NCBI GenBank assembly: GCA_963514005.1
Contig: OY740808.1
Location: forward strand, 11,842,001 to 11,906,000
DNA: 64,000 bases
Direction: 5' to 3'
Source of the DNA: Raja brachyura
Lineage: Eukaryota
Shown here piece by piece: positions 13,105 to 55,048 of the stretch. Positions within the stretch are counted from its first letter, which is position 1. Every line of letters starts with the position of its first letter. The translations under genes and the position numbers were made by a program. Under the pieces are notes generated by a model. It had not been told where the DNA came from. It saw only the letters and a program-made list of their open reading frames with translations, and searched no databases.

Positions 13105-13110
13105 TTTATT
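13105..13110 (-). terminator. Candidate polyadenylation signal of the receptor gene
   Basis: AATAAA on the minus strand about 300 nt after the stop; a second copy at 13008-13013. Confidence 0.4.
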
Positions 13111-13415: not shown

Positions 13416-13517
13416 TCATTTACGCTGCAGCTGGGAGTAAACGACAGGTACTTGCTCTCTATCGCAACTCTGGTTTTGGGGGCTGGCTTTGCGCATGTTC
13501 AGAAGTGAATATTGTAC
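13416..13517 (-). CDS. Receptor terminal exon: ITIM2 + ITIM3
   Basis: Acceptor ttctctatatttgcag|; encodes VQYSLLNMRKASPQNQSCDREQVPVVYSQLQRK-stop. Confidence 0.85.
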   Translation of the reverse strand, partial: VQYSLLNMRKASPQNQSCDREQVPVVYSQLQRK

Positions 13518-16500
13518 CTGCAAATATAGAGAATGTAGATAGCGGTTAATTGTCCTTATTTTGCCGTATACGATATTTAGCGAACAGAATGTTTACATTT
13601 ATTAAATTAGTCATTACAATTGGCAGTACATTCACGTGACTTTAACCTGTAACGTTGCGGTAAGCATGTTTTCAAACAATGTTAACTTCAGGCAAGTCAG
13701 CTTTAAAATAGGTCTGCCCTTTTCTCATTCATTATATATTATATTTCACAACGGCATATTCAGTTCATCGAGAAGATGGGGGCTCACTAAGGAATCCCAT
13801 TCCACCGCGAATTTTTCTGAGGCATATTCTCCCACATTCCAATCAACATCCCTCCCTCCCAGATTCTACCACTCGCCTGCAAACGGGGGGGGAAAGCAGC
13901 CAGTTTACAGCTGCTGTCCCCCCCAGCGGCCAGTTAATTACAGCGGCCAGTTAATCTTTGGGATGGGGGGGGGGGTCACCTGGGGGAAACCCGTGCCTTC
14001 ATGGGGAGAATGGGGGAAAAGTCATCACCTACAGCGTGGACAGCCGTGTTCTACAGGAGATAGACACATAAAAGCTGGAGTAACTCAGCGGGACAGACAA
14101 CATCTCTGGAGAGAAGGAATGGGTGACGTTTCGCGGCGAGACCCATCTGCAGTTGCACCTGAGTTTCTGGAGCCGCGAGGCAGCTGCTCTCTTGAATGGG
14201 GACATTGACTTGGACTTCCCTTAGGACAACTATCTTTAATTGTATGTTTTCCAGTAAAGCCTGTGTAGTTGGGGGTCTGTCCGAATACATTGTCACGTAG
14301 CTCGAAATGCACGTTTTTTTGTTTTGTTTTTACAGCAATACCTGCTCTGTAGAATTATTGGTGGCCTTTGCTATCACAAGATCAGAATAAACGACATGTG
14401 AATCTGCAATCTGACCGCTTTCCGCCGGTGTTGTAGAAGACATATTCGTATATATACCAGGTCCTGAAATGTCCTTTGGGAACAAGAGAGTAAATTTCAC
14501 CAAACTCAGTAACTACATGTTGAATCAGGATATATTGTCCACAATCTATGAGGGAAAAATTACAATTCATACCTTCGCTGTTTACTTTGTTTAAATATAA
14601 TATCATGCTTTCAAATTGAACAATTATTTTCAATTCGTGTATACATTTCTGCCATTTTATCACTGCTTTCCCCTAAATACCATAATTACCAGAATATCAA
14701 TTACCTTTTATCTTTGCACAAACCTAGGTCGAATATATTCTATCGCCTCATTGGATCCTCAATATTTATTTTTCCAATACTAATGTCGCTAATATGGCTT
14801 GCCCAGTCTAGTTGTTTGTCTGATTTTTCAATTTCCCTTTAGCTCATCAGAGGTTATCGCTGACCATGGAACTTCGCAAGGCGCAGCGATTAGCATTCTA
14901 AGTGGATACTTTGAATTTGACTTGAACATGACACTACTTTGAATCCAAGTGTCGTGTTCCTAAAAATGATGGAGAACAACTAAAACAGTGAAAGCAAACA
15001 ACGATTAAACAGCTTTTGGAAAGTATATGTCACTTGTTTGCACTAAAAACATATGGTGCGTAAAGGGCGTATATTGTGCAGTTACACTACCTCCAGTACT
15101 GCTCCAGGAGTCGAATCACTGTGCACCATTAACCGCTTTTCTAGAATTACAAAAAAAAACAAGCATTATTTCAAGAGACATGTTATCACTGTGTCAAGAC
15201 TGCAAACATAATCACAGGTGCTGCTTTATACAAAATGACACAAACTGCTCGACTAATTCAGCGAAACAAGCAGCATCTCTGGAGAGCACTATGAACATAG
15301 AGTTATCCAACGTATTAACCCATTCACCCCCATTCTCTTCTCACGCCTCCCCTGTGCCCCACCTGGTCCCACACCTATTTTTCTCCTCCCACTCCCCCTC
15401 CCCCTCGTTGTACATTCTTACCTCTGGCTTCACAATTCGCAGCTCTTCAATCTGTACTTCTCACACTTTCTGTTCGAATCCCCGGCCTTTGTCCCTACCA
15501 AATATCAAGCCGTGCCACCACCGATTACCTGCAAAGCTATGTCCGGCCTCCCCTCTCTTCCTGCTCCCCCCCTCTCCTACAGTCAATCTGAAGAAGGGTC
15601 CCGACCCGAAACGTCACCCATCTAACAGTTACACACTTTCACGCATATTTAAGCACATTGTACTACACATACGATGGGTCAAATTGGGTACTCATTGCTG
15701 TGCACTTCTATGATTCATTTTCACTGTTTGAAATCGATCGCCAACAAGGTAAATTTTACCTTAATAATTTGTTAACGAATATTATATATCCAGAGTATAT
15801 GCGTTATTTGCAGCGGAAAATTGGCGTATGCCTCTCACATTGGCGGTGAAAGCTTAATACTCACGTTTTACTTTCCAGCAGCTTACCGCTATGAAAATAG
15901 TGACAAATACCAGGAGGCAAATCAGCGGATAAAGCCACGAATGTTGTTCTTTGCAGTAAACAGGACCTTTGAAAGAAATGTGCAAATATCAAGGTTGAAG
16001 TTAATATTGATAGGAAACTATAAATTGGCACGTTTTAATGAAAAACAATGGAGTAATATATTGTTAAAGAAGGAACTGCAGATGCTGGAGGATCGAGGGT
16101 TACACAAAAAGCTGGAGAAACTCAGCGGGTGCAGCAGCATCTAAGGAGCGAAGGAGATAGGCGACGTTTCGGGTCGAGACCCAATGGAGTAATATATATC
16201 ATTGTGCGCTCGCGGAGAGATGACCCACTACGCCTGCATCGTTTTGAGATCCTTTACAATATTATATATGTAATCAAACTTAAAATACCTATTATAATAT
16301 TTAGTCTTTTCTCATTATATTCGGCCGCATTTTGCTTCTCGGTGGAAGTGCTTTCCATTGAGATGATTAAAGTTTATATCTTTTTTAAAGACAGCGGCAA
16401 GATGAGTTTCCTGAAGAAGAAAACTGATCAACTGATATCGCAAAGCACGTTTGGCCGTCAACGTTTAAACTAGGAGTTCCCGCCGATGTAAAATTGGCTA

Positions 16501-18300
16501 TTGAAGACTCGGAATATTCATGTGGAATTAGAAGTTGTCAATATTTTAGAAGGCATCAGTTATGGAATTCAGGTAAATTGTGAATCGAAACATTTATAAT
16601 TTAGCCAAAGTTGCTTCCTGACCTGCTGAGTATTTCCAACACATTTCAGATTTTCCGCATCTGCAATGTTTTGTCCAAAATTATCATAGGGCAAGATCAC
16701 CCGATTTGTGCCATTGCTAGCTTTTGCGGTTGCATTACTTTTCTTGAATAAACCTTCTTGTGCAGACTTTCTGGAAATCAACAATCGACTGCAACAATTC
16801 CAGTAAAATCAACATGGTTCAACTATACTGTATTTTATTTTTTATAGAGAATTCAAGATTCTCATCCACGATAAAGATCTCGGGTCGGGAACCATGTCAA
16901 TCCAAGTTACAGATATATAGACGTGGTCTGATCTGCATTCACCAACATCGTTAACTGTATAGAAAACAGGACAATACAAGACTTGAACAGGTGCCTCGGC
17001 CTGCAACGTATGTGCCGAACACGACACCAACTCTTATTTGCCTGCACGTAATCCATATCCCTCCTTTCCGTGCTTATCCATTTGCTTATCTAAACGTCTT
17101 TTAAATGCCATTATCGTATCTACCTCTGGCATCATTCCCGTCGTTCCAGGCACTCCCTGCCCTCTGTAACTTTTTTTTTACCGCTCACATCACCCTTAAA
17201 CTTTGCCCTCTCACAAACCAAACAGAGCAGCTTTAATACTTCTAAATTCTCACACTGATCCAAAAGATGATGCCAACTCTAATTCAATATAACTATCATA
17301 GAGACGTTGCTCACCCGTTTGTATATCTACCGATCAGGTAAGAATATTTAGGTTACAAAATGATGCGTTTAACCATACTCGGGCGTACAATTACACCAAT
17401 GCCAACTACCAAATGAAGTCGACGGGAAGCAGAATATTTTGAGATTATCTACATTGATCTTCTAAACCAGTTTGCAAGTCGAACATTTCCACATGTTGTT
17501 TCCATCTTTCTTCTTTCCATCTCCCTCGAAGACTACATTTCTTTTTGTGGGGACATCTAATTTGCAAATGCTGTTTCGTGTTTAAAGTCTACCAGTACAT
17601 TTCGCCCTCGAGGAGACCCCGTTTTTTTTTGGCCCAGGACAATCCTACCTACACCTTCCCACACTCGGGTAGATCACAACGCCCATTACTGCTACTCAGT
17701 AATGGTCGGGAGCAACAATCCCACTGACACCCTATTGCACTCAATTGCACCCCCACTCAAATCTCGAGCCGCTGCTGATACCCAGTGACATCTCTGTCGA
17801 TTTTGTTTTGCTAGGATCAGGAACTGAAGGCTGTTGTTCACTTGATTTAATTTGAATTTAATTATGAATAATTGCATAATCCTACCTGTAACTATTAATC
17901 TGCTTCCGCTGCCGTTGAAACTCCGAGTGGATGGTGGATTCAACGTAATCAATTCACAGTAATATGTGCCGCTGTCTTCTTGCTGAAGATTATTTATCGA
18001 CAATTGGCTTCTGTATAAATGTTGGTCCCTAGTAAATTCTAGCCCGAAGGAACGGAGTACTTTGGATTTGTTCATGTAAATTAGGTAGGTCCCATTACCT
18101 GCATTGCTTGATTCGCGAAACCAATTGATCATACAGTCGTGGATTTTATCAATTAAAACGATGCAGTTCAGCTTCGCTGTTCCTCCTTCAGACACTGTGA
18201 GATTACTAGGAATCTGGTAAACCTGCCTGTCAGTAGCAATCGGTGACCAGGTAGTGCAGAAAGTCCACATATAAAAAGATATAAATGCAACGATGTTCAT
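13416..18300 (-). CDS. Single IgV (VJ-type) type I transmembrane immune receptor, CD28/CTLA-4-family-like, with YxNM + 3 ITIMs; 266 aa predicted
   Basis: join(complement 18300-17886, 15966-15865, 15140-15091, 14473-14342, 13517-13416) = 801 nt. All introns GT-AG, phases 1,1,0,0, no internal stop. Yields signal peptide, V domain (C..W..DSGTYYC..GSG), stalk, TM and tyrosine-motif tail. Confidence 0.8.
14342..14473 (-). CDS. Receptor exon 4: YTNM motif + ITIM1
   Basis: Acceptor ctctcttgttcccaaag|; encodes DISGPGIYTNMSSTTPAESGQIADSHVVYSDLVIAKATNNSTEQ; donor CAG|gtattg. Confidence 0.75.
15091..15140 (-). CDS. Receptor exon 3: juxtamembrane cytoplasmic
   Basis: Acceptor gtttttttttgtaattctag|; encodes QKRLMVHSDSTPGAVLE; donor GAG|gtagtg (weaker); phase 1-0. 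Confidence 0.6.
15588..15615 (+). ncRNA. Minimal hammerhead-ribozyme-like core in a Penelope terminal repeat
   Basis: CTGAAGA-A-GGGTC-CC-GACCC-GAAAC-GTC matches CUGANGA / stem II / GAAA / palindromic ACGU / cleavage triplet. Lies antisense within receptor intron 2. Confidence 0.5.
15865..15966 (-). CDS. Receptor exon 2: stalk + transmembrane
   Basis: Acceptor catttctttcaaag|; encodes GPVYCKEQHS-WLYPLICLLVFVTIFIAVSCW-KVK; donor C|gtgagt; phase 1-1. Confidence 0.85.
16062..16181 (-). mobile_element. Short Penelope-derived insertion in receptor intron 1
   Basis: Flanking 16-bp direct repeat CAATGGAGTAATATAT at 16046-16061 and 16182-16197. Confidence 0.75.
17886..18300 (-). CDS. Receptor exon 1: signal peptide + VJ-type IgV domain
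   Basis: aacATG start. Hydrophobic MNIVAFISFYMWTFCTTWSP, then QVYQIPSNLTVSEGGTAKLNC...INWFRE...LSINNLQQEDSGTYYCELITLNPPSTRSFNGSGSRLIVT. Phase-1 donor G|gtagga. Confidence 0.85.
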
Positions 18301-19849: not shown

Positions 19850-20850
19850 GCCCTTCTGATCCCGGTGTTCCGGGAAGAAACTGTCCCTGCATCTGGACGT
19901 GTGCGTTTTCACACTTCTGTACGTCTTGCCTGAAGAGAGAGACAGGAAGAGAGGTTGTCCGGGGTGAGACTGGTCTTTGGGGTGGTTCGGGACATGCCAA
20001 ACCTCCTAAAGCCTTCTAAGGAAGTTGAAGCGTTGGTACGCTTTCTTGGCGATAGCTTCGATGTTACTGGTCCAGCACAAATTGCTGGTGATATTTGTTC
20101 CTATGAACTTGAAGCTTGCAACCATCTCTGCTTCGGCGCTGCCAATGTATACTGGGGTGTGTGTACTGCTTCGCTTCCTGAAGTCAATCGCAATCTCCTT
20201 TATCTTGCTGATATTGAAGGAAACGTTATTGTCTTGGCAACAGGTTACAATGTTCTCAAGCTCCTTCCTGTACTCCGACTGGTCATTATTTGATATCCGG
20301 TCGAGTATACTGGTAGTGTCTGCTCAATTGTAAATTGAGTTGGATTGGTATATGGCTGTGCAGTGTAGATATATAAGGAGTATAGTAGGGGGCGGAGAAC
20401 TCATCCTTATGGGGCATCATTGATGGTAGTGGATGATTGGTCACCTATCCTCACAGATTGTGGTATGTTGGTCAGGAAGTCGAACACCCAATTGAAGTGG
20501 GGAGTGCTGATTCCGTTCCAATAGTTTGGAGATGAGCTTGCTTAGGCTAATGGTATTGAAAGCAGGGCTCTAGTATATGAATAGGAGTCTGATGTAGGTG
20601 CTCATCTCATCCAGATGTTCTGGGGCCATAAAGTGTAGGACCAGAGAGATGGCTTCAGCAGTGGACCTGTTGTACTGCTGTAGAACTGCTGTAGATTAAG
20701 GCTTCTTGGTCGGCTGAATCTGGCTGCTCGAGAAGCAATTCGTAATGGTGGATGTGAAGACATCTGGACAATAGTCATTGAGGCATGAGATCTCGATTTG
20801 CTTTGGCACCGATATGATAGTGGTCGTTTTGATGCATGTCAGTACCTCAG
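19850..20850 (-). mobile_element. Decayed Rex1/Babar-like LINE RT fragment
   Basis: Antisense similarity to the RT region of the 1641-3985 element. Its right part (from about 20435) is repeated at about 42575 and 61850. Confidence 0.65.
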
Positions 20851-20859
20851 AATTAATTC

Positions 20860-21455
20860 CCGGTCTACAACTAGAGCAGTCCGATGTACCACAAAGAGCA
20901 AATTATATGATTTTTCGATGATCTACATTGATATTCCTACACCAAGTTGCAAGTCGAACATCTCCATGCTTTGGCCCCATTTTCCTTCCCCCGCGAGGCT
21001 TCGTTTGCTTTTGATGGGCGACGAGTATTTTGGAAATACTGGTCAGCGTTTAGTGTTTCATCAACGCAGTTTTCGTCAAACTCCATACGAGCTTGGATAT
21101 TTGGCCCAGCAAGCTCCGCGGCGCCACGTGGTTTATTTACACTCAGAAATGACAAGGAACATTAATCTTGCTGATAATCCTTCCCCACTAACCCCTATTC
21201 ACCCACGACATCTTCCCTACTCAAAAACCATTGTTGCTGGCCATTGGCAGATCCGTCGATGGTTCTTTCCTGGGATCCTGAAACTCATGCCGTTGTTCAA
21301 TGGCTTTAATGTTCACATCAATGACAGGTTCTTCTTCGTTCCGGCTGTATTTGGTAAGATTATGTTGGTTCTGGCACAGTGGAATTGCAATGCAGTTTGT
21401 GGAAATAGGTTGGTCAGACCAGACATCAAGGAGTGGACAATTTACATGTTAAAAC
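20860..21455 (-). pseudogene. Decayed coding-like exon of an unidentified gene (copy 1)
   Basis: Stop-free stretches HVNCPLLDVWSDQPISTNC...EEEPVIDVNIKAIEQRHEFQDPRKEPSTDLPMASNNG and SFLSVNKPRGAAELAGPNIQARMEFDENCVDETLNADQYFQ..., broken by stops and frameshifts. No TE motif recognised. Confidence 0.4.
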
Positions 21456-22312
21456 TGTAAAGCACCACTTTCAATGGTGTCAGATCAGATCAATAACCTG
21501 AATCCAATAATCCACATTTTTAAATATGTACGTATCCACGTAGGAAACTGCAACAGTTTCAGAAGGAAATGTCACTTCCTAATAAAAAAAAACAGCAAGG
21601 GTCTACATTTTGGTCAACAGAGATGGCTTTGAGGTCAGCTACAAGGAGAAGTACAAAGGAATGAACTGAGGATATGTTGGGGCGAAATTCCAGAGATTTG
21701 GGGTTTGCCAGATGAAGACTAACGCCAATAATAAAATAGTTAAAGCCAGGGATGCTTTTAGGTCAAGAATTTGAGCCCTTCTGCTCTTTCCAGTTGATAT
21801 ATTCTTTGTGTCTGATCAGCTATTTATTGCAAAATTGCCTCCTAATGTAGGTAGTCTGGTGAAATGAATAATGGGGGTTTCAATGAAATTAGGGGAGAAT
21901 CAAATTATAGAACCACATCCTTTAAATGTGCTTCGACTGCAAGCTACTGTGATATATTTTCAATTGCATTACTATACTTTAGCAAATTTCACCAGTTATA
22001 TCCACCATATACTGCATTTACAACTCATAAGTCTGCGCAACAACCTGGGAGCTCTCGAGAAAATTCTCATTTGTTCTGCAATTTTGTTGACTTCAGGAAG
22101 AAAATCCCAGAGGGCAATATCTTTCAGTCCCGGTTAGAAGTAATTTCGCATAAGAAATGGTAGTACGTCTCACATAATATTACGTAAATGATTGGAAAGT
22201 TTATGAAATTGCATTTATTTGAGAGCAGATTATTCGTAAATAACAATATAATTGGATACAATCCCTATGTTTTTTGATCACAAGTGGATGGATCGCAGTT
22301 CACAACCGCTGG

Positions 22313-23776
22313 TAGGTTGTGGGCCGAGCATCAACAAATCTATCAATCAACTTTCGTGACCCATGCCTCGGAACTACATTAAATTTTGCACAGATTTAGG
22401 TAAACTATAATTGAAAAGGAAGTCATAACTCGTCAGTGCCAAAAGTTGCACAATAATTAATTAAACTAATTAGAATTAATTAAACTATATAATTAGAAAA
22501 TGAGATCGAAAAAGTAAACGCCATCTAGTGTCCAATGCCCATATTACACAATTGGGAGCCTATTTACGAGTTGCAGTCTATTTAAACCACGTATTATGAT
22601 ACCGTCTATATATATATATGACTTGTGAATATGACTGTAATCATATATAATTATGTATAATTATATTATATAAAAATAATATAAATAATATAATTGTGTG
22701 TGTGTTTTGAATGAGACTGCCGCAGAGGTCTGGCTCCTGAACCAGCCTATTAATGGGTGAAGGCAGTTCTTCTGGGTTCCCCCATTTACTGAACCCCACT
22801 GACTGCTAGTGTGCAGAGTGGGGGTCACGGTCACAGTGGGACTGGGGCAGTGCCAGGCAGGGGGAAGGCTAAGGCATCTTCCACTGAGAGAAAAATGCCT
22901 AACCCTATACTAACCCGAACTCGCCCCCCTACAGAGCTGCCCATGGCTGGAGCTGGAGCTGCTTTGGGACTGGCTGCGGGCTCCGTACATGTGGCTGCTC
23001 AGCGAGCCCACCTCGGCCAGCATGCCCTTCTGGATCGTCGTGGTGATGATGGCGGGGAGCAGCACTGCCCCGCACGCCACCCGGGCCGCCTTCAGCATCC
23101 CCATAGCGCCGTCAGTCCGCCCACACGCTCGCTGCAACACTGGCCTACCGACAACCCGACCGACCCTTCGCAGCTCTCACCGGCCGTCTGACCACTCTCA
23201 CCATCCACTGGCGGACCGACACCCCTATCGATCCTCCACAGCATCGTCGGCCTACTGACAAACCCTACCGACAAGCCCTACCGGCAAGCCCGACCGACCG
23301 ACAGACTGGCCGATTGACTCTAATCCTAACCCTAACCCTAACCCCAATCCTCACCCTAACCCTAGCTGTACATATGTTATTTATCATTTTTATTTAACAG
23401 TTCACATCATAACTTTATAAAGATAAATCAATTGAAACACAAAATGATCAGCAAGGTGAGCATTACCTTTATTCCTTGGAAACCTTGCTATTGTTTTGAT
23501 GTAATGAGGAGGCAGCCATGATCCCAGGGTTCTCGCTGCCCAGCGACCATAAAACAAAGCGCAGGATTGGTCAATTTGCGTCAGACAATGTCAAACATGC
23601 ATTGATTGGACAATTACTATTCGGAAAATTTGAAGTTTTTCTCATATTTAAACAAAATGTGCACGTTTTGTTCTTGACGAGTTTCAGATATGATTTATAT
23701 AATATTTTAAACATTCAGGTAGTTCCGTGAGTTGAGTCACGAACCTGAACGAAAAAGCCCCTCGGCCCCCAGCCTA
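22313..23776. mobile_element. Non-autonomous TIR DNA transposon, unit-1-specific, 3-bp TSD
   Basis: 16-bp TIR (14/16 match) taggttgtgggccgag / ctcggcccccagccta; TSD TGG. Empty sites with a single TGG at 44349-44351 and 63617-63619. Confidence 0.85.
23318..23365 (+). repeat. Degenerate interstitial telomere-like (CCCTAA)n
   Basis: ctctaatcctaaccctaaccctaaccccaatcctcaccctaaccctag. Confidence 0.7.
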
Positions 23777-24142
23777 TGGTTCTTGATTCTCCTACTCTGG
23801 GTAAAAGAGTAGAGGAAGAAGGTTTAATGTGAGAGGGGAATGATTTAATAGGCGCCTGAGGGGAAACATTTTCGCTCAGTCTGGTTGATGAGTGTATGGA
23901 ACAAGCTGCCAGAAGAGGTAGTTCAAACAGGTACTATAACAACATTTAAAATACATTTGGAAAGGTACATTGATAAGAAAGGTTTAGAGGGATACGGGCC
24001 AAACGTGGGCAGGTGGACTTGTTGGGCCGAAGGGCTGTTTCCCTACTGAATAATTCCAAGTGATACATGCTTACAGCGGATCTGCATAAATCATCGGGAC
24101 CTGTACAAAAAAAAAGCCCAGTTGCAGAGGAATGCGGGGGCT

Positions 24143-24210
24143 CATCTCTGTATCGTAACATCTCTGTATCATCTCTGTATCGTAACATCTCTGTATCATC
24201 TCTGTATCGT
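24143..24210 (+). repeat. Short tandem repeat of catctctgtat(cgtaa)
   Basis: Five copies of catctctgtat. Confidence 0.7.
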
Positions 24211-25211
24211 GTGAGTTGACTGGCCGCTCACAATAACCCCAGATGTAGTTCGAGTAAATTTCCACCCTGCGTGATGAGGCGCTGCATTCGACGATCTTCT
24301 GTGGTCCCTGCCGTTATCTTGCCCTTAGATGCTGAATCAATCCAAAATAGTGGCATAATCTGCAGCGCCTTTGGGATATTTACAGTTGTTGTAATTTATG
24401 GGGAGCAAATGCAAACTGCTTGATGTGAAAATGCTGGTATTGCCCAAATGTTCGTCTCTGCGCCGGACAGTCTTGCAACAGTAGATGACAGCATTGCATC
24501 GGTTATGAAATAATGTTCATTTATTGCGGAGATTAAGATAATGCAATATTAAGATAACGTGTAAGCCCATAAACCCATCTGTTATCTACTCATTTGGCGA
24601 TTATGGGCGTGGATGCGAATGAGGAGCGGTTTTAACTTTTGACACTAGACAGTAAAAAAGACGGAGGCAATACACTTACTGAATGCTCAATTGCACTTGG
24701 AGAAACAAACACAAAATATTTTTCCTCGTAAGCTCAATTCATCGTGACGGTCTTAAAAAAAGAGTTCGGACAAAAAACATACAAGCAGCTCTCACTGGGT
24801 AAATGCGGTAATAGAAAAAAACCATTTGACCGCGTGGGCAGAATATACCGATGCAGTCTCCGATTTTAACGGTAGATGGCGGTGCCGTGCCTTACTTCTG
24901 TGGTGAAGCTCGACACATCCCTATTCTGAAATGGGTCAACCACAATAATATGTCTGAGCTCACGTATAGGCCAGATCCGCAATAATTAGATTATTTTCCC
25001 CTTGAAGGATATATTTGGGATCCAGATGTTTTGTAGTAATCAATTGTATAACCTGATGTTTCTTTTGAGATATTCCAGACACTTACAATAATTTAGATTC
25101 CACACCTTCCCTGTTGAAATAGGTCTGGATGTATGGTCCAGGCCTCTGCGTTCGTAGTGATGTGATTTCGGTTCGAAACCATTGCTTATCTGCTCTTCCT
25201 TCACCTTTGCA

Positions 25212-28016
25212 GGGACCAAGGCTGGGAGCTGAACATCCAGGGATATTCAATATTCAGGAGCGATAGAGAGAAAGGAAAAGGAGGTGGGGTAGCGTTGCTG
25301 GTTAGAGAGGAGATTAACGCAATGGAAAGGAAGGACATTAGCTTGGAGCATGTGGAATCGGTATGGGTAGAGTTGCGAAACACTAAGGGGCAGAAAATGC
25401 TAGTGGGAGTTGTGTACAGGCCACCTAACAGTAGTAGTAGTGAAGTTGGGGATGGTATCAAACAGGAAATTAGAAATGCATGCGACAAAGGCAAAGCTGT
25501 TATAATGGGTGACTTCAATCTACATATAGATTGGGTGTATGAAATTGGCAGGGGCGCTGAGGAAGAGGATTTTTTGGAAAGTATGCGGGATAGTTATCTA
25601 AATCAACATGTAGAGGAACCAATGAGAGAGCAGGCTATTTTAGACTGGGTATTGAGTAATGAGGAAGGGTTAGTTAGCAGTCTTATTGTGCGTGCCCCCT
25701 TGGGCAAGAGTGACCATAATATGGTCGATTTCTTCATTAGGATGGAGAGTGACATTGTTAATTCAGAAACAATGGTTCTGAACTTAAGGAAAGGTAACTT
25801 TGAGGGTATGAGACGTGAATTGGCCAAGATTGACTGGCAATCAATTTTAAAAGGGTTGACGGTGGATACGCAATGGAAGACATTTAAAGACTGCATGGGT
25901 GAACTACAAAAATTGTTCATCCCAGTTTGGCAAAAGAATAGATCAAGGAAGGTAGTGCACCCGTGGATAACAAGGGCAATCAGGGATAGTATCAAAGCAA
26001 AGGATGATGCGTACAAAGTAGCCAGAAAAAGCAGCATACTAGAGGACTGGGAGAAATTCAGAGACCAGCAGAGGAGGACAAAGGGCATTATTAGGAAAGG
26101 AAAAATAGATTATGAAAGAAAACTGGCAGGGAACATAAAAACTGACAGCAAATGTTTTTATAGATATGTGAAGAGAAGGAGATTAGTTAAAACAAATGTA
26201 GGTCCCTTGCAGTCAGAAACAGGTGAGTTGATCATGGGGAACAAGGATATGGCGGACCAATTGAATAACTACTTTGGTTCCGTCTTCACTAAGGAAGACA
26301 TAAATAATCTGCCGGAAATAGCAGGGGACCTCGGGTCAAAGGAGGACTTGAGTGAAATCCAGGTTAGTCGGGAAGTGGTGTTGGGTAAATTGAATGGATT
26401 AAAGGCCGATAAATCCCCAGGGCCAGATAGGCTGCATCCCAGAGCACTTCAGGAAGTAGCTCCGGAAATAGTGGATGCATTAGTGATAATCTTTCAAAAC
26501 TCTTTAGATTCTGGAGTAGTTCCTAAGGATTGGCGGGTAGCAAACGTAAACCCTCTTTTTAAGAAGGGTGGGGGGGGGGGGGGGGGGGGGTGAGAGAGAA
26601 AACAGGGAATTACAGACCAGTTAGTCTAACATCGGTAGTGGGGAAACTGCTAGAGTCAGTTATTAAAGATGGGATAGCAGCACATTTGGAAAGTGGCGAA
26701 ATCATTGGACAAAGTCAGCATGGATTTACGAAAGGTAAATCATGTCTGACGAATCTTGTGGAATTTTTCGAGTATGTAACTAGTAGCGTGGATAGGGGAG
26801 AACCAGTGGATGTGGTGTATCTGGACTTCCAGAAGGCTCTCGACTAGGTCCCACATAAGAGATTAGTATATAAACTTAAAGCATACGGCATTGGGGGTTC
26901 AGTATTGATTTGGATAGAGAACTGGCTGGCAAACAGGAAGCAAAGAGTAGGAGTAAACGGGTCCTTTTCACAATGGCAGGCAGTGACTAGTGGGGTACGG
27001 CAAGGCTCAGTGCTGGGACCCCAGCTATTTACAATATACATTATTGATCTGGATGAGGGAATTGAAGGCAATATCTCCAAGTTTGCAAATGACACTAAGC
27101 TGGTGGGCAGTGTTAGCTGTGAGGAGGATGCTAGGAGACTGCAAGGTGACTTGGATAGGCTGGGTGAGTGGGCAAATGTTTGGCAGATGCAGTATAATGT
27201 GGATAAATGTGAGGTTATCCACGTTGGTGGCAAAAATAGGAAAGCAGACTATTATCTAAATGGTGGCCGATTAGGAAAAGGGGAGATGCAGCGCGACCTG
27301 GGTGTCATGGTACACCAGTCATTGAAAGTAGGCATGCAGGTGCAGCAGGCAGTGAAGAAAGCGAATGGTATGTTAGCTTTCATAGCAAAGGGATTTGAGT
27401 ATAGGAGCAGGGAGGTTCTACTTCAGTTGTATTGGGTCTTGGTGAGACCACATTGGAGTATTGCGTACAGTTCTGATCTCCAAATCTGAGGAAGGACATT
27501 ATTGCCATAGAGGGAGTGCAGAAAAGGTTCACCAGACTGATTCCTGGGATGTCAGGACTGTCTTATGAACAAAGACTGCATAGACTCGGTTTATACTCTC
27601 TAGAATTTAGGAGATTGAGAGGGGATCTTATAGAAACTTACAAGATTCTTAAGGGGTTGGACAGGCTAGATATAGGAAGATTGTTCCCAATGTTGGGGAG
27701 GTCCAGGACAAGGGGTCACAGCTTACGGATAAGGGGGAAATCCTTTAGGACCGAGATGAGAAGGACTTTTTTCACACAGAGAGTGGTGGGTCTCTGGAGC
27801 TCTCTGCCACAGAGGGTAGTTGAGGCCAGTTCATTGGCTATATTTAAGAGGGAGTTAGATGTGGCTCTTGTGGCTAAGGGGATCAGAGGGTATCAGAAGG
27901 CAGGTACAGGATACTGAGTTGGATGATCAGCCATGATCATATTGAATGGCGGTGGAGGCTCGAAGGGCCGAATGGCCTACTCCTGCACCTAATTTCTATG
28001 TTTCTATGTTTCTATG
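25212..28016 (+). mobile_element. Young 5'-truncated CR1 LINE (near-complete ORF2, frameshifted), unit-1-specific
   Basis: ORFs 25295-26593, 26590-26847, 26905-27489 and 27516-27917 give EN (VYRPPN, MGDFN, SDHN) and RT (YLDFQKA, QGSVLGP, FANDTKL). (TTTCTATG)3 tail. Empty site at about 45410-45420. Confidence 0.92.
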
Positions 28017-34425: not shown

Positions 34426-37400
34426 ATGGCTGAATGGGTTTGGGTTCTCGCCTTGGTGACCTGTTTCCACTGTGAGTAGAGCGCAGAATGATTAATGCTG
34501 TATCGTTTTACATTCTGCTGTGTTTTTTCTAATGGTTTTGTACATTGATCTGTTTTTTTCTATCAGCTATAAACGCGGAGACGACCTTGACTCAGGACCC
34601 GTCTATATCAACCTCGCCGGGAACAACCGTCAAAATTTCCTGTACCCTGTCAGGGGGCAGCATCGGTAGCTTCTACACGAGCTGGTACTGGCAGAAGCCG
34701 GACAGCGCTCCTGTCTTGGTGTGGTATGGAAGCTCCAGAGGCACCGGAATTCCAGACCGATTCACGGGTTCCGTGGACTCATCCACGAACCAAATGCATT
34801 TAACCATCACCAACGTGCAATCGGAGGACGCTGCCGATTATTACTGTGGTGTGTGGGACAACACTAATGACGAATTCACCTTTGGGAGAGGAACCAAACT
34901 GAATCTAAGCAGTAAGTAAAGTATTCACGTTTTGAAACTTCGAATCGTTGAACTTAACTTTTGCTTTCCACCATAAATCCTCGGTAGAAAGATCCTATAA
35001 ACCTAAGTAGAACACAACGGGGCAGCCAGCAATTCAGGTAGACGTAGGGATGGGCACTATTTCGTGTCGGGAGACTTTCTCGAACGGAAATATGGTCTTT
35101 CTATGTCATCCAGAGATGCTGTCTGATCCGCTGGATTACTTCAGCTCTTTGTGCTGTACTCAAGATGGCAACTTGTTTCTCCTACGTGAACTTGGTGTTT
35201 ATGATCCTTTACCTCCATCCCTACAACACTCCGAGAAATCTGCGCTCACCCAACCGTGGGTTCTTGATCATCGTGGAATTTAACGCCTTCACATACTGAC
35301 AGCTGTGCATCAAAGTTGTTTAATTCTGGAATGATCTCCCGAAGCTCTATTTTCCCCATTGTTCCCTGATGTTCATGAAAACTGCTCGTTCAGCCGAAAT
35401 GCTGATTTGAAGCCTCCTCAAGTGGCGGGTTTCATTCGAGACTGCTGCTATTGATCACTTTGCTTCACTATAAGGGTAATGCAAACGAAAACTGTTGCCG
35501 TTACTTGAAAAAATGTTCGGGAAATTATGAGATTTTATTAGTTTACGGTATATTGTGGACACGGAGAATACCAACTCTGAGAGTGGGCCAAATAGGATAA
35601 TTGGAAGCATCCAAAAGAAAGTTAATAAACATTTGCAAGGGATGTTGGTGAATTTAAATGGGATGTTTTTGAAATTGCAAATACCCATTAGGGCAATTTG
35701 CGCGAAGTTGATTTCTGATCGTTTTAATGATACCATCAGGGTGAAGTGGCGTTTCGGCAGGTTTACATGCGCTCCCTACAACAGCGCTAAAACTAATTGC
35801 CAGGGAAAAGGTAAAAAACAAATAATTAAACGCTTCGCACCGAACCATTTCAATTCTCTCTGCGCGAAAGTGTGGAGGATTGTTGCAAGTCTGATTCAGC
35901 TCCGAAATTAGAAACAAGAGCAGAACCGTATTCGGGTTCATTTCTCGTTCAGCTAGCCATTGCCACCTAAGCTGATCACATTTGTGTGGATATGCCGTCA
36001 GGCTCTTTGTACCCACCTTGTAGAACCTGCAAGGGATTTTGATGCAGGTTCTCCGATTGCCATTGAGTGCATGATATAGCAGACAACGCAGACTGTTCAC
36101 TATGCTGTCAAACATGATCCCTCTGATTGTTGATTTTTTTTACGGGCAGGCAGTTGGTGGACCGACCTGTCAAAAAGCTTAAAAGATCGAGACATAATTT
36201 TGCCATTTTCTGATAAATTAGTGCGGAAATGGGCACACAAGTATACGAGGTTGTTGCTGAATTGCCTAGAATCGAAAGATTGGAAGGAAATAGTACAGCG
36301 TCTTTAAATTCAGCATTAACTTGAAATGTTTTTAAAAGTTCGAATATGTTGGATGTTAAACCCAGAGCTGTCTGGATATGTGTCAGAATGAATTTGAATC
36401 TGACCAAACCATTAGTTTTACCTTTCCTTTTTCTGACCGCCACCATCCTTGAATCATGGACTTTCTGGACGATGTGGAAGATACACTAATAAGTAATATT
36501 CTAAAGACAATTCCGGGAAAGAATTGGGATCACTGTTTAAACAAGCATGAATTTGGAAATGCTGCTCATTCTGCTAGGATGAGTTGTAATTCCATTTTTT
36601 TTCTGCCCGTTTCCATGATGTGAAGAAAATCGTAGGGTACATGGTTTACCCTACGATGGTACAGTGAAAATTAACTTATCACGATTCTGCTGTATAAAAC
36701 GAGGTTTATAAATCAACGGTAATTGTAAAGCCAGTGCAGGACACGGCCATAGAGCCACAGAGTTATGCAGCGGTGGAACAGACCTCAAGTCCACCTATTT
36801 CATGCCGACCGAGGTGCCCTTCTTGCAGGTCCCATTTGCGTGTGCCATTCCCATATCTCTTTGAACCTTTCCTATCCAAGTATTAATTCAAATGTTTTTT
36901 AAATGGTGTTATTGCACCTGCCTCAACAACCTCTCTGGGGAACTGGAGTCAATGCATTATGTGTACAAATGTTGCTCTGAACCTAAGCCCTCTAATTCTT
37001 CATTCTCGTACTATGCGGAAAAGACTCCGTGCGCTAACCCTATGTATTCCCCTCGCGATTTTGTACACCGCCATGCGATCACCCTAAGGTCTTCTACACT
37101 CCAAGAACTAACGTCCTCGCATATCCAATCGATGCCTACAGTTCAGGCGTTCGAAACCTGGCACCGTCATCGTAAATCTTGTCTGGAGTCATTCCAGCTG
37201 AATCGATTCTGACTTTTAACGACAACTGATCAATAATTCATTTATATTTATTTCAATTCTTATTTCCAGGTCCGCGTCCCCCCACCGTTTCCATTCTGGC
37301 GCCTTCAACGGGTGACGTCACCGCAAAAAGTACCGCCACCCTGGTGTGTTTGGTGAGCGGGTTCAATCCGGGCGTTGTGGACATCGAGTGGACCGTGGAC

Positions 37401-37592
37401 GGCAGTGCGAGAAGTGATGGCGTTGCGACCAGCCGGGTCCAGCAGGAGAAGGACTACTCGTTCAGTGCGAGCAGTTACCTGACTCTGCCAGCCTCCGACT
37501 GGAACTCACACGACCTTTACTCCTGTGTGGTTAAACACGAAACCCAGACAACCCCGATTAAGGCCAATATCGCCAGATCCAGTTGCCTGTAA
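34426..37592 (+). CDS. IgL: Immunoglobulin light chain, lambda-type (type II), germline-joined VJ, cluster 1; 237 aa
   Basis: join(34426-34471 leader MAEWVWVLALVTCFH, 34567-34911 VJ ETTLTQDPS...WYWQKPDSAP...YYCGVWDNTNDEFTFGRGTKL, 37270-37592 C SPRPPTVS...ATLVCLVSGF...YSCVVKHE...SSCL). Phase-1 GT-AG introns, no RSS. WYWQKPDSAP and VDSS..MHLTITNVQSED are typical of elasmobranch type II chains. Confidence 0.95.
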
Positions 37593-51977: not shown

Positions 51978-54900
51978 ATGGCTGAATGGGTTTGGGTTCT
52001 CGCCTTGGTGACCTGTTTCCACTGTGAGTAGAGCGCAGAATGATTAATGCTGTATCGTTTTACATTCTGCTGTGTTTTTTCTAATGGTTTTGTACATTGA
52101 TCTGTTTTTTCTATCAGCTATAAACGCGGAGACTACCTTGACTCAGGACCCGTCTATATCAACATCGCCCGGAACAACCGTCAAAATCACCTGTACCCTG
52201 TCAGGGGGCAGCATCGGTAGCTTGTACGCGAGCTGGTACTGGCAGAAGCCGGACAGCGCTCCTGTCTTCGTGTGGCATCAAAGCTACGGCATAGGCACCG
52301 GAATTCCAGACCGATTCACGGGTTCCGTGGACTCATCCACGAACCAAATGCATTTAACCATCACCAACGTGCAATCGGAGGACGCTGCCGATTATTACTG
52401 TGGTGTGTGGGACAACACTAATTACGAATTCACCTTTGGGAGAGGAACCAAACTGAATCTAAGCAGTAAGTAAAGTATTCACGTTTTGAAACTTCGAATC
52501 GTTGAACTTAAGTTTTGCTTTCCAACATAAATACTCGGTAGAAAGATCCTATAAACCTACGTAGACACAGCGGGGCAGCCAGCATCTCCGGTAGACGTAG
52601 GGATGGGCACTATTTCGTGTCGGGAGACTTTCCCGAACGGAAATATGGTCTTTCTATGTCATCCAGAGATGCTGTCTGATCCGCTGGATTACTTCAGCAC
52701 TCCGTGCTGTACTCAAGATGGCAACTTGTTTCTCCTACGTGAACTTGGTGTTTATGATCCTTTACCTCCATCCCTACAACACTCCGACAAAATCAGCGCT
52801 CACCTAACCGTGGCTTCTTGATCATCGTGGAATTTAACGCCTTCACATACTGACTGCTGTGCATCAAAGTTGTTTAATTCTGGAATGATCTCCTGAAGCT
52901 CTATTTTCCCCATTGTCCCTGATGTTCATGAAAACTGCTCGTTCGAGACTGCCGCTATTGATCACTTTGCTTCACTATAAGGGTAATGCATACGAAAACT
53001 CTTGTCGTTACTTGAAAAAATGTTCGGGAAATTATGAGATTTTATTAGCTTACGGTATATTGTGGACACTGAGAATACCAACTATGAGAATGGGCCAAAT
53101 AGGATAATTGGAAGCATCCAAAGGAAAGTTAATAAACATTTGGCAAGGGATGTTGGTGAATTTAAATGGGATATTTTTGAAATTGCAAAATCCCCATCAG
53201 GGCAAATTGCGCGAAGTTGATTTCTGATCGTTTTAATGATACCATCAGGGTGAAGTGGCGTTTCGACAGGTTTACATGCGCTCCCTACAACAGCGCTAAT
53301 ACGAATTGTCAGGGAAAAGTTTAAAAAACAAATATTTAAACGCTTCGCACGGCACCATTTAAATTCTCTCTGTGCGAAAGTGTGGAGGATTGTTGCAAGT
53401 CTGATTCAGCTCCGAAATTAGAAACAAGAGCAGAACCGTATTCGGGTTCATTTCTCGTTCAGCAAGCCTTTGCCACCTTAGCTGATCACATTTGTGTGGA
53501 TATGCCGTCAGACTCTTTGTACCCACCTTGTAGAACCTGCAAGGGATTTTGATGCAGGTTCTCCGTTTGTCATCGAGTGTAGGATGTGGTAGAAAACGCA
53601 GACTGTTCACTATGCTGTTAAACATGATCCCTCTGATTGTTGATTTTCTTACGGGCAGGCAGTTGGTAGACCGACATGTCAAAAGAACGAGACATAATTT
53701 TGGGATTTTTGGACAAATTAGTGCAGAATGGGCACACATGTATACGAGGTTATTGCTGAATTGCTCAGATACGAAAGATTGGGAGGAAATAGTACAGCGT
53801 CTTTAAATTCGGCAGTTAGTTTGAAATGTTTTTTAAAGTTCGAATATGTTGGATGTTAAACCCAGAGCTGTCTGGATATGTGTCAGAAGGAATTTGAATC
53901 AGACCAAAACATTTCTTTCGTTTTACCTTTCATTTTTCTGACCGCCACCAACCTTGAATCATGGACTTTCTGGCCGATGTGGAAGATTCACTAATAAGTA
54001 ACATTCTAAAGACTATTCCTGGAAAGAATTTGGATTACTATTTAAACAAGCATTAATTTGGAAATGCTGCTCATTCTGCCAGGATGAGTTGTAAATCCAT
54101 TTTTTTCCGCCCGTTCCCATGATCTGAAGAAAATCGTAGGGTACATGTTTTACCAAACGTCGGATAATCGCACTAAAAATAACTTATCATGATTCTGCTG
54201 TATAAAATGAGGTTTATAAATCAACGGTAATTGTAAAGCCAGTGCAGTACACGGCCATTGAGCCACGGAATCTTTCAGACCGAGTTTCACATTTGCGCAT
54301 ACCAGGCCCATATCTCTTTGAACCTGTTTCATCCAATTATTAATTCAAATGTTTATTTAAATTGTGTTATTGTACCTGCCTCATCAACTTCTCTGGTGAA
54401 CAAATTCCATGGAGTTCACGCATTTTGTGTTGCCCTGAACCTAAGCCCTCTAATTCTTCATTCTCCTACGATGGGGGGAATACTCCGTGCGCTAACCCCA
54501 TGTATTCCCCTCGCGATATTGTACACCGCCATGTGATCACCCGAAGGTCTTCTACACTCCAAGGACTAACGTCCTAGCATATCCAATCGATGCCTATAGT
54601 TCAGGCGTTCGAAACCTGGCACCGTCGACATAAATCTTGCCTGGAGTCATTCCAGCTGAATCAATTCCGACTTAACGTAAACTGATAAATAATCTATTTG
54701 TATTTATTTTAATTCTTATTTACAGGTCCGAGCCCCCCCATCGTTTCCATTCTGGCGCCATCAATGGGTGAAATCACCGCAAAAAGTACCGCAACCCTGG
54801 TGTGTTTGGTGAGCGGGTTCAATCCGGGCGTTGTGGACATTGAATGGACCGTGGACGGCAGTGCGAGAAGTGATGGCGCTGCGACCAGCCGGGTCCAGCA

Positions 54901-55048
54901 GGAGAAGGACTACTCGTTCAGTGCGAGCAGTTACCTGACTCTGCCAGCCTCCGACTGGGACTCACACGACCTTTACTCCTGTGTGGTTAAACACGAAACC
55001 CAGACAACCCCGATTAAGGCCAATATCGCCAGATCCAGTTGCCTGTAA
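51978..55048 (+). CDS. IgL: Immunoglobulin light chain, lambda-type (type II), germline-joined VJ, cluster 2; 238 aa
   Basis: join(51978-52023, 52118-52465, 54726-55048). Intact frame and splice sites; CDR3 GVWDNTNYEFTF; C ends SSCL. Confidence 0.95.

What the first reader, a model, noticed from the sequence alone, without database searches (positions are those of the whole stretch)
13416..14473. Tail combines a CD28-type YxNM motif with three ITIMs
Seen: IYTNM, VVYSDL, VQYSLL and VVYSQL; the last two Tyr are 24 aa apart. Established: YxxM binds PI3K p85 and YxN binds Grb2 (CD28 has YMNM), while V/IxYxxL binds SHP-1/2. Inference: a dual activating/inhibitory tail. The similar VVYSxL motifs in exons 4 and 5 may come from internal duplication.
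Basis: partly seen in the sequence, partly recalled or inferred. Interest (0 to 1): 0.7.

Follow-up and report, generated by a model that had tools for sequence, protein, structure and literature searches.

The report
Unnamed PD-1-like receptor of cartilaginous fish
This is an unnamed single-Ig-domain immune receptor gene shared by sharks, rays and a chimaera that likely acts as a PD-1-style brake; the CD28-like 'accelerator' motif flagged here is in the sequence but absent from all seven relatives that could be checked, so it is likely a recent change in one lineage rather than a conserved dual switch.

Summary
The four motifs are real: GIYTNM, VVYSDL, VQYSLL and VVYSQL, with Tyr spacing 21/18/24. 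They lie in the tail of a 266-aa, five-exon, minus-strand gene (leader+V, TM, a 50-bp exon, two tail exons) that is single-copy in a cartilaginous-fish genome. Orthologs occur in nine other chondrichthyans, all 'uncharacterized' or 'PD-1-like'. First and last tyrosines are kept in all orthologs that cover them. Exon 4/5 likeness is no higher than to unrelated ITIM tails, so duplication is unsupported. Best reading: an inhibitory, PD-1-style receptor of the CD28 structural group whose proximal motif changed in this fast-evolving lineage. Mixed tails are already known (TIGIT, CD96). The gene sits between RPLP0/PXN-like genes and an Ig light-chain cluster, 1.1 Mb from the markers of CD28HL3, a gene reported missing in cartilaginous fish. 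Its CDR3 fails the CD28HL3 motif and a second gene on another contig competes, so orthology is open. Expression, splicing and binding are untested.

The parts
17886..18300 (-). Coding exon 1: predicted leader and V-set Ig domain in one exon (Cys46, Cys115; CDR3 loop C-x6-PP-x6-GSG); ends phase 1
   Evidence: (Pfam V-set 5.5e-14); orthologs start at an equivalent Met in sawfish and stingray
15865..15966 (-). Coding exon 2: short stalk, uncharged transmembrane helix with a Cys, stop-transfer residues; phase 1-1
   Evidence: (71% identity to sawfish 150-173)
15091..15140 (-).
   Evidence: AG/GT borders; tblastn to sawfish ortholog, E 0.001 within the window
14342..14473 (-). Coding exon 4: tail exon, phase 0-0, with Y197 and Y218
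14441..14458 (-). GIYTNM (Y197): YxNM here; [S/T/I]xYAT[L/V] in 7 of 7 orthologs
14378..14395 (-). VVYSDL (Y218): strict ITIM here only; +3 is T or P in the 5 orthologs that keep the Tyr
13416..13517 (-). Coding exon 5: last tail exon with Y236, Y260 and stop
13500..13517 (-). VQYSLL (Y236): strict ITIM; Tyr kept in 7 of 8 orthologs, +3 always V or L
13428..13445 (-). VVYSQL (Y260): strict ITIM; Tyr kept in 8 of 8 orthologs, +3 L/V/M
13105..13110 (-). First AATAAA downstream of the stop, candidate poly(A) signal (untested)

Best explanation
The gene encodes a single-V-domain type I membrane receptor, found across cartilaginous fish, that likely works as a PD-1-style inhibitory receptor, and its YxNM motif is likely a lineage-restricted change of an ancestral ITIM/ITSM-like site rather than a conserved activating arm. 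Shown: exon anatomy with canonical borders, V-set fold, uncharged TM, four tail tyrosines, ortholog motif table. Inferred: a cell-surface ligand (possibly B7-like) clusters the receptor on lymphocytes, a Src-family kinase phosphorylates the tail, and paired tyrosines 18-24 residues apart dock the tandem SH2 domains of SHP-1/SHP-2/SHP-2L to damp antigen-receptor signalling. In relatives the first and last tyrosines would carry this. In this species Y197 lost its -2 and +3 ITIM residues while Y218 and Y236 fit the strict ITIM consensus, so the net output would stay inhibitory. Any Grb2 or p85 binding at Y197 would be secondary and could itself be inhibitory, as in TIGIT.
For: Orthologs in 9 species at 34-56% identity to the model. 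Y197 context YAT[L/V] in 7 of 7 and Y260 kept in 8 of 8. YxxM and YxN also appear singly at other tyrosines of single species (stingray Y4 VVYSQM, white shark Y2 IVYSNP), as drift would give. The window's V branch is long (0.55 versus 0.14 for sawfish) and 8 of 24 conserved tail columns differ. No charged TM residue, so no sign of DAP12/FcRg-type pairing (pairing rule recalled). Atlas features of the sawfish ortholog rank PDCD1 clusters 2nd and 3rd (0.96). [quoted passage not shown] TIGIT's Grb2 site is inhibitory, and CD96's YxxM is primate-only (PMC9263721 passages).
Against: Three adjacent single-base amino-acid changes (A>T, T>N, L>M) hit a site that is nearly invariant elsewhere and land exactly on YxNM. 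Given that both +2 and +3 change by one base from the needed codons, N and M together come up about 1 in 30 (codon neighbours; a post hoc figure). YTNM is also the motif of pike and salmon CD28H (supplement 4). Strict ITIM matches in orthologs are fewer than the word 'inhibitory' suggests (Y4 strict in 1 of 8 because -2 is Met in sharks). Y2 is usually YSxP, which fits no ITIM.
Confidence: 0.68

Rival explanations
1. Lineage-specific rewiring: in this batoid lineage the ancestral proximal ITIM/ITSM was converted into a working CD28-type p85/Grb2 site while two distal tyrosines became stricter ITIMs, giving a true dual tail.
For: Exact YxNM reached by three one-base changes, with +3 Leu at Y218 found only here; YxNM is membrane-proximal as in CD28/CD28H; YxNM in 0.6% of tail shuffles.
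Against: 0 of 7 orthologs share it; the lineage is fast-evolving across V and tail; YxxM/YxN arise sporadically in other species; motif presence did not predict direction for CD96 or CTLA-4.
Confidence: 0.2
2. The gene is the chondrichthyan ortholog of CD28HL3, which Quiniou et al. 2024 could not find in cartilaginous fish. This concerns identity and is compatible with the best explanation.
For: Same contig carries PLA2 (10.07-10.17 Mb), CNH/CIT-like (10.45), CD225/TMEM233-like (10.71), AMPK-beta/PRKAB1-like (10.75) and CCDC60-like (37.2) genes, the markers of supplement 7. No other V-domain ORF in 1.79 of 1.82 Mb from 10.02 to 11.842 Mb. Tail pattern YAx[L/V] ... YSx[L/V/I] as in CD28HL3.
Against: CDR3 motif YxCxxxxx[IAVL]P not met in the window or in the nine ortholog species. 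The gene is 1.1 Mb from PRKAB1-like, whereas the fish blocks listed span roughly 40-190 kb. The YAxL...YSxV tail is generic (controls). A second gene at C19:11.106 Mb looks closer by eye to sterlet/bichir CD28HL3 in CDR3 and in its ICYAKL motif.
Confidence: 0.35
3. The gene is not a CD28-family member but an independent germline-joined VJ-type receptor, for example derived from or co-located with the neighbouring Ig light-chain cluster, with a convergent inhibitory tail.
For: Lies about 16 kb from the first light-chain V of a cluster whose C exons span 11.879-12.924 Mb; best PDB sequence and fold matches are Ig/TCR V domains, with PD-1 tied within 1 Z unit (Z 14.5, rmsd 2.0, 108 aligned); leader and V share one exon, unlike the separate leader exon recalled for CD28-family genes.
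Against: The V domain does not group with the window's light-chain V domains; its C-x6-PP-x6-GxG loop has the register of shark CD28H/CD28HL2; atlas neighbours are PD-1/CTLA4/BTLA clusters.
Confidence: 0.2
4. The copy in this species is decaying, and the tail changes reflect relaxed selection.
For: Long branch; 9 of 56 conserved V columns and 8 of 24 conserved tail columns differ.
Against: All five exons are open with canonical splice sites and in phase, both V cysteines, all four tyrosines and the stop position are kept; contigs of a second organism cover exon 4 without gaps.
Confidence: 0.07

Closest known systems
PD-1 (PDCD1)
   Same: Single V domain, uncharged TM, tandem inhibitory tyrosines; ancestral YAT[L/V] resembles the PD-1 EYATI core; atlas and fold neighbour; elephant-shark ortholog auto-named PD-1-like.
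   Different: Four tyrosines, proline-bearing CDR3 with GxG, different locus; published skate and shark PD-1 sequences are other proteins.
CD28HL3 (Quiniou et al. 2024, PMC11599192)
   Same: Single V, ITIM/ITSM tail, marker genes on the same contig about 1.1-1.8 Mb away.
   Different: CDR3 motif not met; four rather than two Tyr motifs; a rival candidate on C19; reported absent from Chondrichthyes.
CD28 and CD28H/TMIGD2 group
   Same: Membrane-proximal YxNM in this species; CDR3 prolines and GxG in the same register as shark CD28H/CD28HL2.
   Different: No PPP or EIP, no TM YxxxxT, YxNM not shared by orthologs, distal ITIMs.
TIGIT, CD96 (and BTLA, recalled)
   Same: One tail with a Grb2- or p85-type site plus ITIM(s); shows that the mixed architecture is already known.
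   Different: Nectin or HVEM ligands and unrelated ectodomain details; no orthology claimed or tested.

Membership tests
CD28 family (criteria of PMC11599192) | One extracellular IgSF V domain, TM, cytoplasmic tyrosine motifs | tested here: met
CD28 family (criteria of PMC11599192) | CDR3 proline motif and G-strand GxG in canonical positions | tested here: met
   C-x6-PP-x6-GSG, same register as shark CD28H and CD28HL2, though two prolines not three
CD28 family (criteria of PMC11599192) | Located in the conserved synteny block of a named member | tested here: inconclusive
   CD28HL3 markers on the same contig at 1.1-1.8 Mb, not adjacent
CD28 family (criteria of PMC11599192) | Binds a B7-family ligand | not testable with these tools
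   no ligand known
CD28HL3 | CDR3 motif YxCxxxxx[I/A/V/L]P | tested here: not met
   window has YYC-ELITL-N-P; none of the nine ortholog species fits
CD28HL3 | Cytoplasmic [I/V]xYxxL ... VTYxxV (ITIM/ITSM) | tested here: inconclusive
   ITIMs present but four tyrosines and no VTYxxV; pattern generic
CD28HL3 | Linkage to prkab1, pla2g1b, tmem233 | tested here: inconclusive
   family-level matches on the same contig, 1.1 Mb or more away; only V gene in the scanned interval
CD28HL3 | Clusters with bichir/gar/sterlet CD28HL3 in a tree | not tested
   those proteins were not returned by the searches
PD-1 | CDR3 without conserved prolines | tested here: not met
   PP or P in all orthologs
PD-1 | Tail (I/V)(D/E)Y(A/G)(E/V)L then (T/V)EYATI | tested here: not met
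   skate PD-1 is a different sequence
CD28 / CD28H | Conserved membrane-proximal YxNM or YxN motif | tested here: not met
   present in the window only, 0 of 7 orthologs
CD28 / CD28H | PPP (CD28) or EIP (CD28H) in CDR3; TM YxxxxT (CD28) | tested here: not met
ITIM-bearing inhibitory receptors | Strict (S/I/V/L)xYxx(I/V/L) motifs in the tail | tested here: met
   3 in the window; at least one strict ITIM or ITSM in 7 of 7 orthologs with exon 4
ITIM-bearing inhibitory receptors | Phospho-dependent SHP-1/2 or SHIP recruitment and inhibition | not testable with these tools
   needs bench work

The most novel reading that the evidence does not exclude
This is an undescribed checkpoint receptor of cartilaginous fish (the missing CD28HL3 or a tenth CD28-family member, parked beside the Ig light-chain cluster) caught switching polarity: in one batoid lineage three point changes turned its conserved PD-1-like YATL site into a working CD28-type YxNM PI3K/Grb2 site while distal tyrosines took over SHP binding.
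Probability: 0.15. Interest if true: 0.62.

Novelty: new member of a known kind. Interest (0 to 1): 0.36.

Why it matters
The mixed tail itself is not new. The gene matters modestly: it is a PD-1-style receptor kept from chimaera to rays that two recent surveys of the CD28/PD-1 family do not list under the accession numbers checked, and it lies near the block of the one family member thought absent from cartilaginous fish. Placing it would settle whether the ancestor of jawed vertebrates had that member, and it adds a candidate checkpoint for shark and skate immunology. If the YATL-to-YTNM change is functional, it is a natural three-mutation switch between PD-1-type and CD28-type signalling that can be tested with peptides.

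Tried and rejected
Expression: no RNA holder listed, no evidence either way. DNA contigs of two organisms were laid: they cover exon 4 without gaps, but the rows for exon-4 differences were not shown, so the motif in close relatives stays unread. Word-index search with the first exon alone found nothing (lengths 75-242 only); no skate protein appeared. Four-exon model without the 50-bp exon (TM donor 15864 to acceptor 14463) keeps the same tail frame but drops about 20 residues that all orthologs have; rejected. A separate upstream leader exon was looked for by tblastn of orthologs over 12-24 kb and not found. The 20.5-22.3 kb stretch is a repeat shared with the light-chain clusters. Internal duplication of exons 4/5: p about 0.02-0.03 against shuffles in this species but 4 of 7 species above 0.1 and no better than unrelated tails; rejected as unsupported. 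Fold search cannot separate V-set families (top 50 within Z 13.6-15.4); CD28, CTLA-4 and NKp30 chains were not among the rows, which is not informative. V-domain tree left deep branches open. Tandem paralogs: none in the window or genome above 38% identity. Literature: no paper holds six ortholog ids; 'CD28HL3' occurs in one paper; searches gave no description of this gene; six ids/strings absent from the 9 supplements of PMC11599192 and three ids absent from the 6 of PMC12151841. Figures and subscription papers were not visible. Earlier scan findings: none.

Full report
Observation. The window is G000:C30:11,842,001-11,906,000 of a 2.7-Gb genome. Tyrosine spacing is 21, 18 and 24 residues. 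In 200,000 shuffles of the 98-residue tail, three or more strict ITIMs arose in 0.085%, a YxNM in 0.6%, and any YxxM or YxN in 28%.

Gene anatomy. The tail belongs to a five-exon coding model of 266 residues: 18300-17886 (predicted leader plus V domain), 15966-15865 (stalk and TM), 15140-15091 (50 bp), 14473-14342 and 13517-13416. All introns are GT-AG and phases run 1, 1, 0, 0. The 50-bp exon was found by homology to the sawfish protein. The V domain matches Pfam V-set at 5.5e-14 and folds as a V-set sandwich (mean pLDDT 73). The TM has no charged residue, and the ectodomain has four N-glycosylation sequons. The gene is single-copy: the next own-genome matches are 27-38% identical. Splicing and expression are predicted only.

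Orthologs. A full HMMER scan and two profile searches returned orthologs from nine chondrichthyan species: Pristis, Hemitrygon, Carcharodon, Cetorhinus, Heterodontus, Heptranchias, Chiloscyllium, Stegostoma and Callorhinchus. All are named 'uncharacterized' or 'hypothetical' except the chimaera one, 'programmed cell death protein 1-like'. Identity to the model is 34-56%. In a V-domain tree the window's protein joins sawfish and stingray (support 88/96), so the genome is inferred to be a batoid; its end branch is 0.55 against 0.14 for sawfish. The Callorhinchus model is truncated before the tail and the Cetorhinus model used skips exon 4, so 7 species inform Y197 and Y218 and 8 inform Y236 and Y260.

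Motif conservation. Y197: STYATL, STYATL, TIYATV, ITYATL, STYATL, TIYATL, SIYATL. That is 7 of 7 YAT[L/V] (5 strict ITIM, 1 strict ITSM, 1 near) and 0 of 7 YxN or YxxM. Y218: Tyr kept in 5 of 7, +3 residue T or P, 0 strict ITIMs. Y236: Tyr kept in 7 of 8, +3 V or L, 2 strict ITIMs. Y260: Tyr kept in 8 of 8, +3 L, V or M, 1 strict ITIM because -2 is Met in the sharks. Single species also show YxxM at Y4 (stingray) and YxN at Y2 (white shark). Against a pure drift reading: YATL becomes YTNM by three one-base changes at a site almost invariant elsewhere, and landing on both N and M is about 1 in 30 given the needed ancestral codons (post hoc). For drift: 8 of 24 conserved tail columns and 9 of 56 conserved V columns differ in this species. 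Contigs of a second organism cover exon 4 with 10 differences in 708 bases and no gaps, but the positions were not displayed, so the motif in close relatives is unread.

Internal duplication. Exon 4 versus exon 5 scores 24 (64 of 2000 shuffles reach it). Across 7 species only 3 fall under 5% of shuffles, the mean is 22.9, and 10 unrelated Tyr-motif tails score 18.9-28.0 against exon 4. The likeness is that of any two ITIM-bearing segments.

Neighbourhood. To one side lie a ribosomal L10/P0-type gene (11.834-11.840 Mb), paxillin, a PP-loop gene and a sirtuin (the names RPLP0, PXN, CTU1, SIRT4 and their human 12q24 position are inferred or recalled, and only 145 of 1,309 candidate ORFs of that flank were scanned). 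To the other side an Ig light-chain cluster begins inside the window, with C exons from 11.879 to 12.924 Mb. Further out on the same contig are PLA2 genes (10.07-10.17 Mb), a CNH-domain gene (10.45), a CD225 gene (10.71), an AMPK-beta gene (10.75) and CCDC60-like (37.2). These are the families of the CD28HL3 markers in supplement 7 of PMC11599192, a gene that paper could not detect in Chondrichthyes. A profile scan of 1.79 of the 1.82 Mb between 10.02 and 11.842 Mb found no other V-domain ORF among 26,066 ORFs; the same profile finds the window's V and light-chain V exons. However, the CD28HL3 CDR3 motif is not met, and a second single-V gene at C19:11.106 Mb, 28% identical to this one, looks by eye closer to sterlet and bichir CD28HL3. 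I therefore do not file the gene as CD28HL3.

Mechanism. Best reading (0.68): a PD-1-style inhibitory receptor. Shown are the anatomy and the conservation pattern. Inferred are ligand binding, Src-family phosphorylation and docking of tandem-SH2 phosphatases, whose binding residues are conserved in sharks (PMC12151841, passages). In this species Y197 has lost the ITIM -2 and +3 residues while Y218 and Y236 fit the strict consensus, so the output would stay inhibitory. A Grb2 site need not activate: TIGIT uses one to recruit SHIP1, and CD96 has YxxM only in primates (PMC9263721 and PMC5225559, passages). The rival of a working dual tail limited to this lineage gets 0.2.

Comparison and novelty. 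It works like PD-1 by inference but is not PD-1: the CDR3 has prolines, the tail consensus differs and skate PD-1 is another sequence. It meets the domain and CDR3 criteria of the CD28 family as defined in PMC11599192 (I read parts 1-5 of 6 of the text, supplements 4 and 7 whole, parts 10-11 of supplement 3 and skate/shark rows of supplement 2); synteny is inconclusive. Atlas features of the sawfish ortholog place it among PDCD1, BTLA and CTLA4-like clusters (lead only). Searches found no description of the gene; figures and papers outside the library were not seen. Verdict: a real, apparently undescribed member of a known kind; the flagged dual tail is not a conserved feature and the architecture is known. 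Interest 0.36.

Noticed in passing
window 34533-37589 and 52048-55045 (+): Two Ig light-chain units with V and J already joined in one open frame plus a C exon (type recalled as lambda-like); first units of a cluster whose C exons run to 12.924 Mb on C30 and switch strand between 11.99 and 12.54 Mb.
   Followed up: partly
G000:C19:11.09-11.106 Mb (L069:5730-6356 -, L068:4834-4941 -): A second single-V gene with CDR3 PPP and GSG and a candidate tail exon with ICYAKL and TVYSPV; by eye close to sterlet/bichir CD28HL3 and matching none of the little-skate CD28-family CDR3s listed in PMC11599192 supplements 2 and 4. Its TM exon was not found.
   Followed up: partly
G000:C19:11.076-11.081 Mb (L067:848-1240 -, L066:8557-8754 -, L066:6047-7813 -): Right beside that gene, a B7-like V exon (best PDB matches CD276/B7-H3 and VTCN1), then a TM-like exon and a NACHT exon on the same strand. 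Possibly a B7-NACHT fusion gene or two close genes; a receptor-ligand pair side by side is possible.
   Followed up: partly
G000:C358:176-183 kb (L074): Two V exons about 6 kb apart with P-bearing CDR3 and GxG; one falls, on a long branch, near this gene's ortholog group.
   Followed up: no
window 18300-17886 (-): Predicted leader and V domain share one exon, with the start Met at an equivalent place in several orthologs; unusual for CD28-like genes (recalled) and unexplained.
   Followed up: partly
window 15919-15917 (-), TM Cys155: A TM cysteine is kept in most orthologs (lost in the stingray); could serve dimerisation or palmitoylation.
   Followed up: no
P0004/P0152 and P0058/P0161: White shark and basking shark each have two loci of this gene, one annotated with a tail lacking tyrosines: a possible duplicated, signalling-dead partner in lamniform sharks.
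   Followed up: no
G000:C30:10.07-10.17 Mb: At least five near-identical secreted PLA2 genes in alternating orientation.
   Followed up: no
window 20524-25215: Non-coding stretches upstream of the gene are 81-87% identical to parts of the light-chain repeat units at 42.6-45.4 kb and 62-64 kb, marking the eroded edge of the cluster.
   Followed up: no
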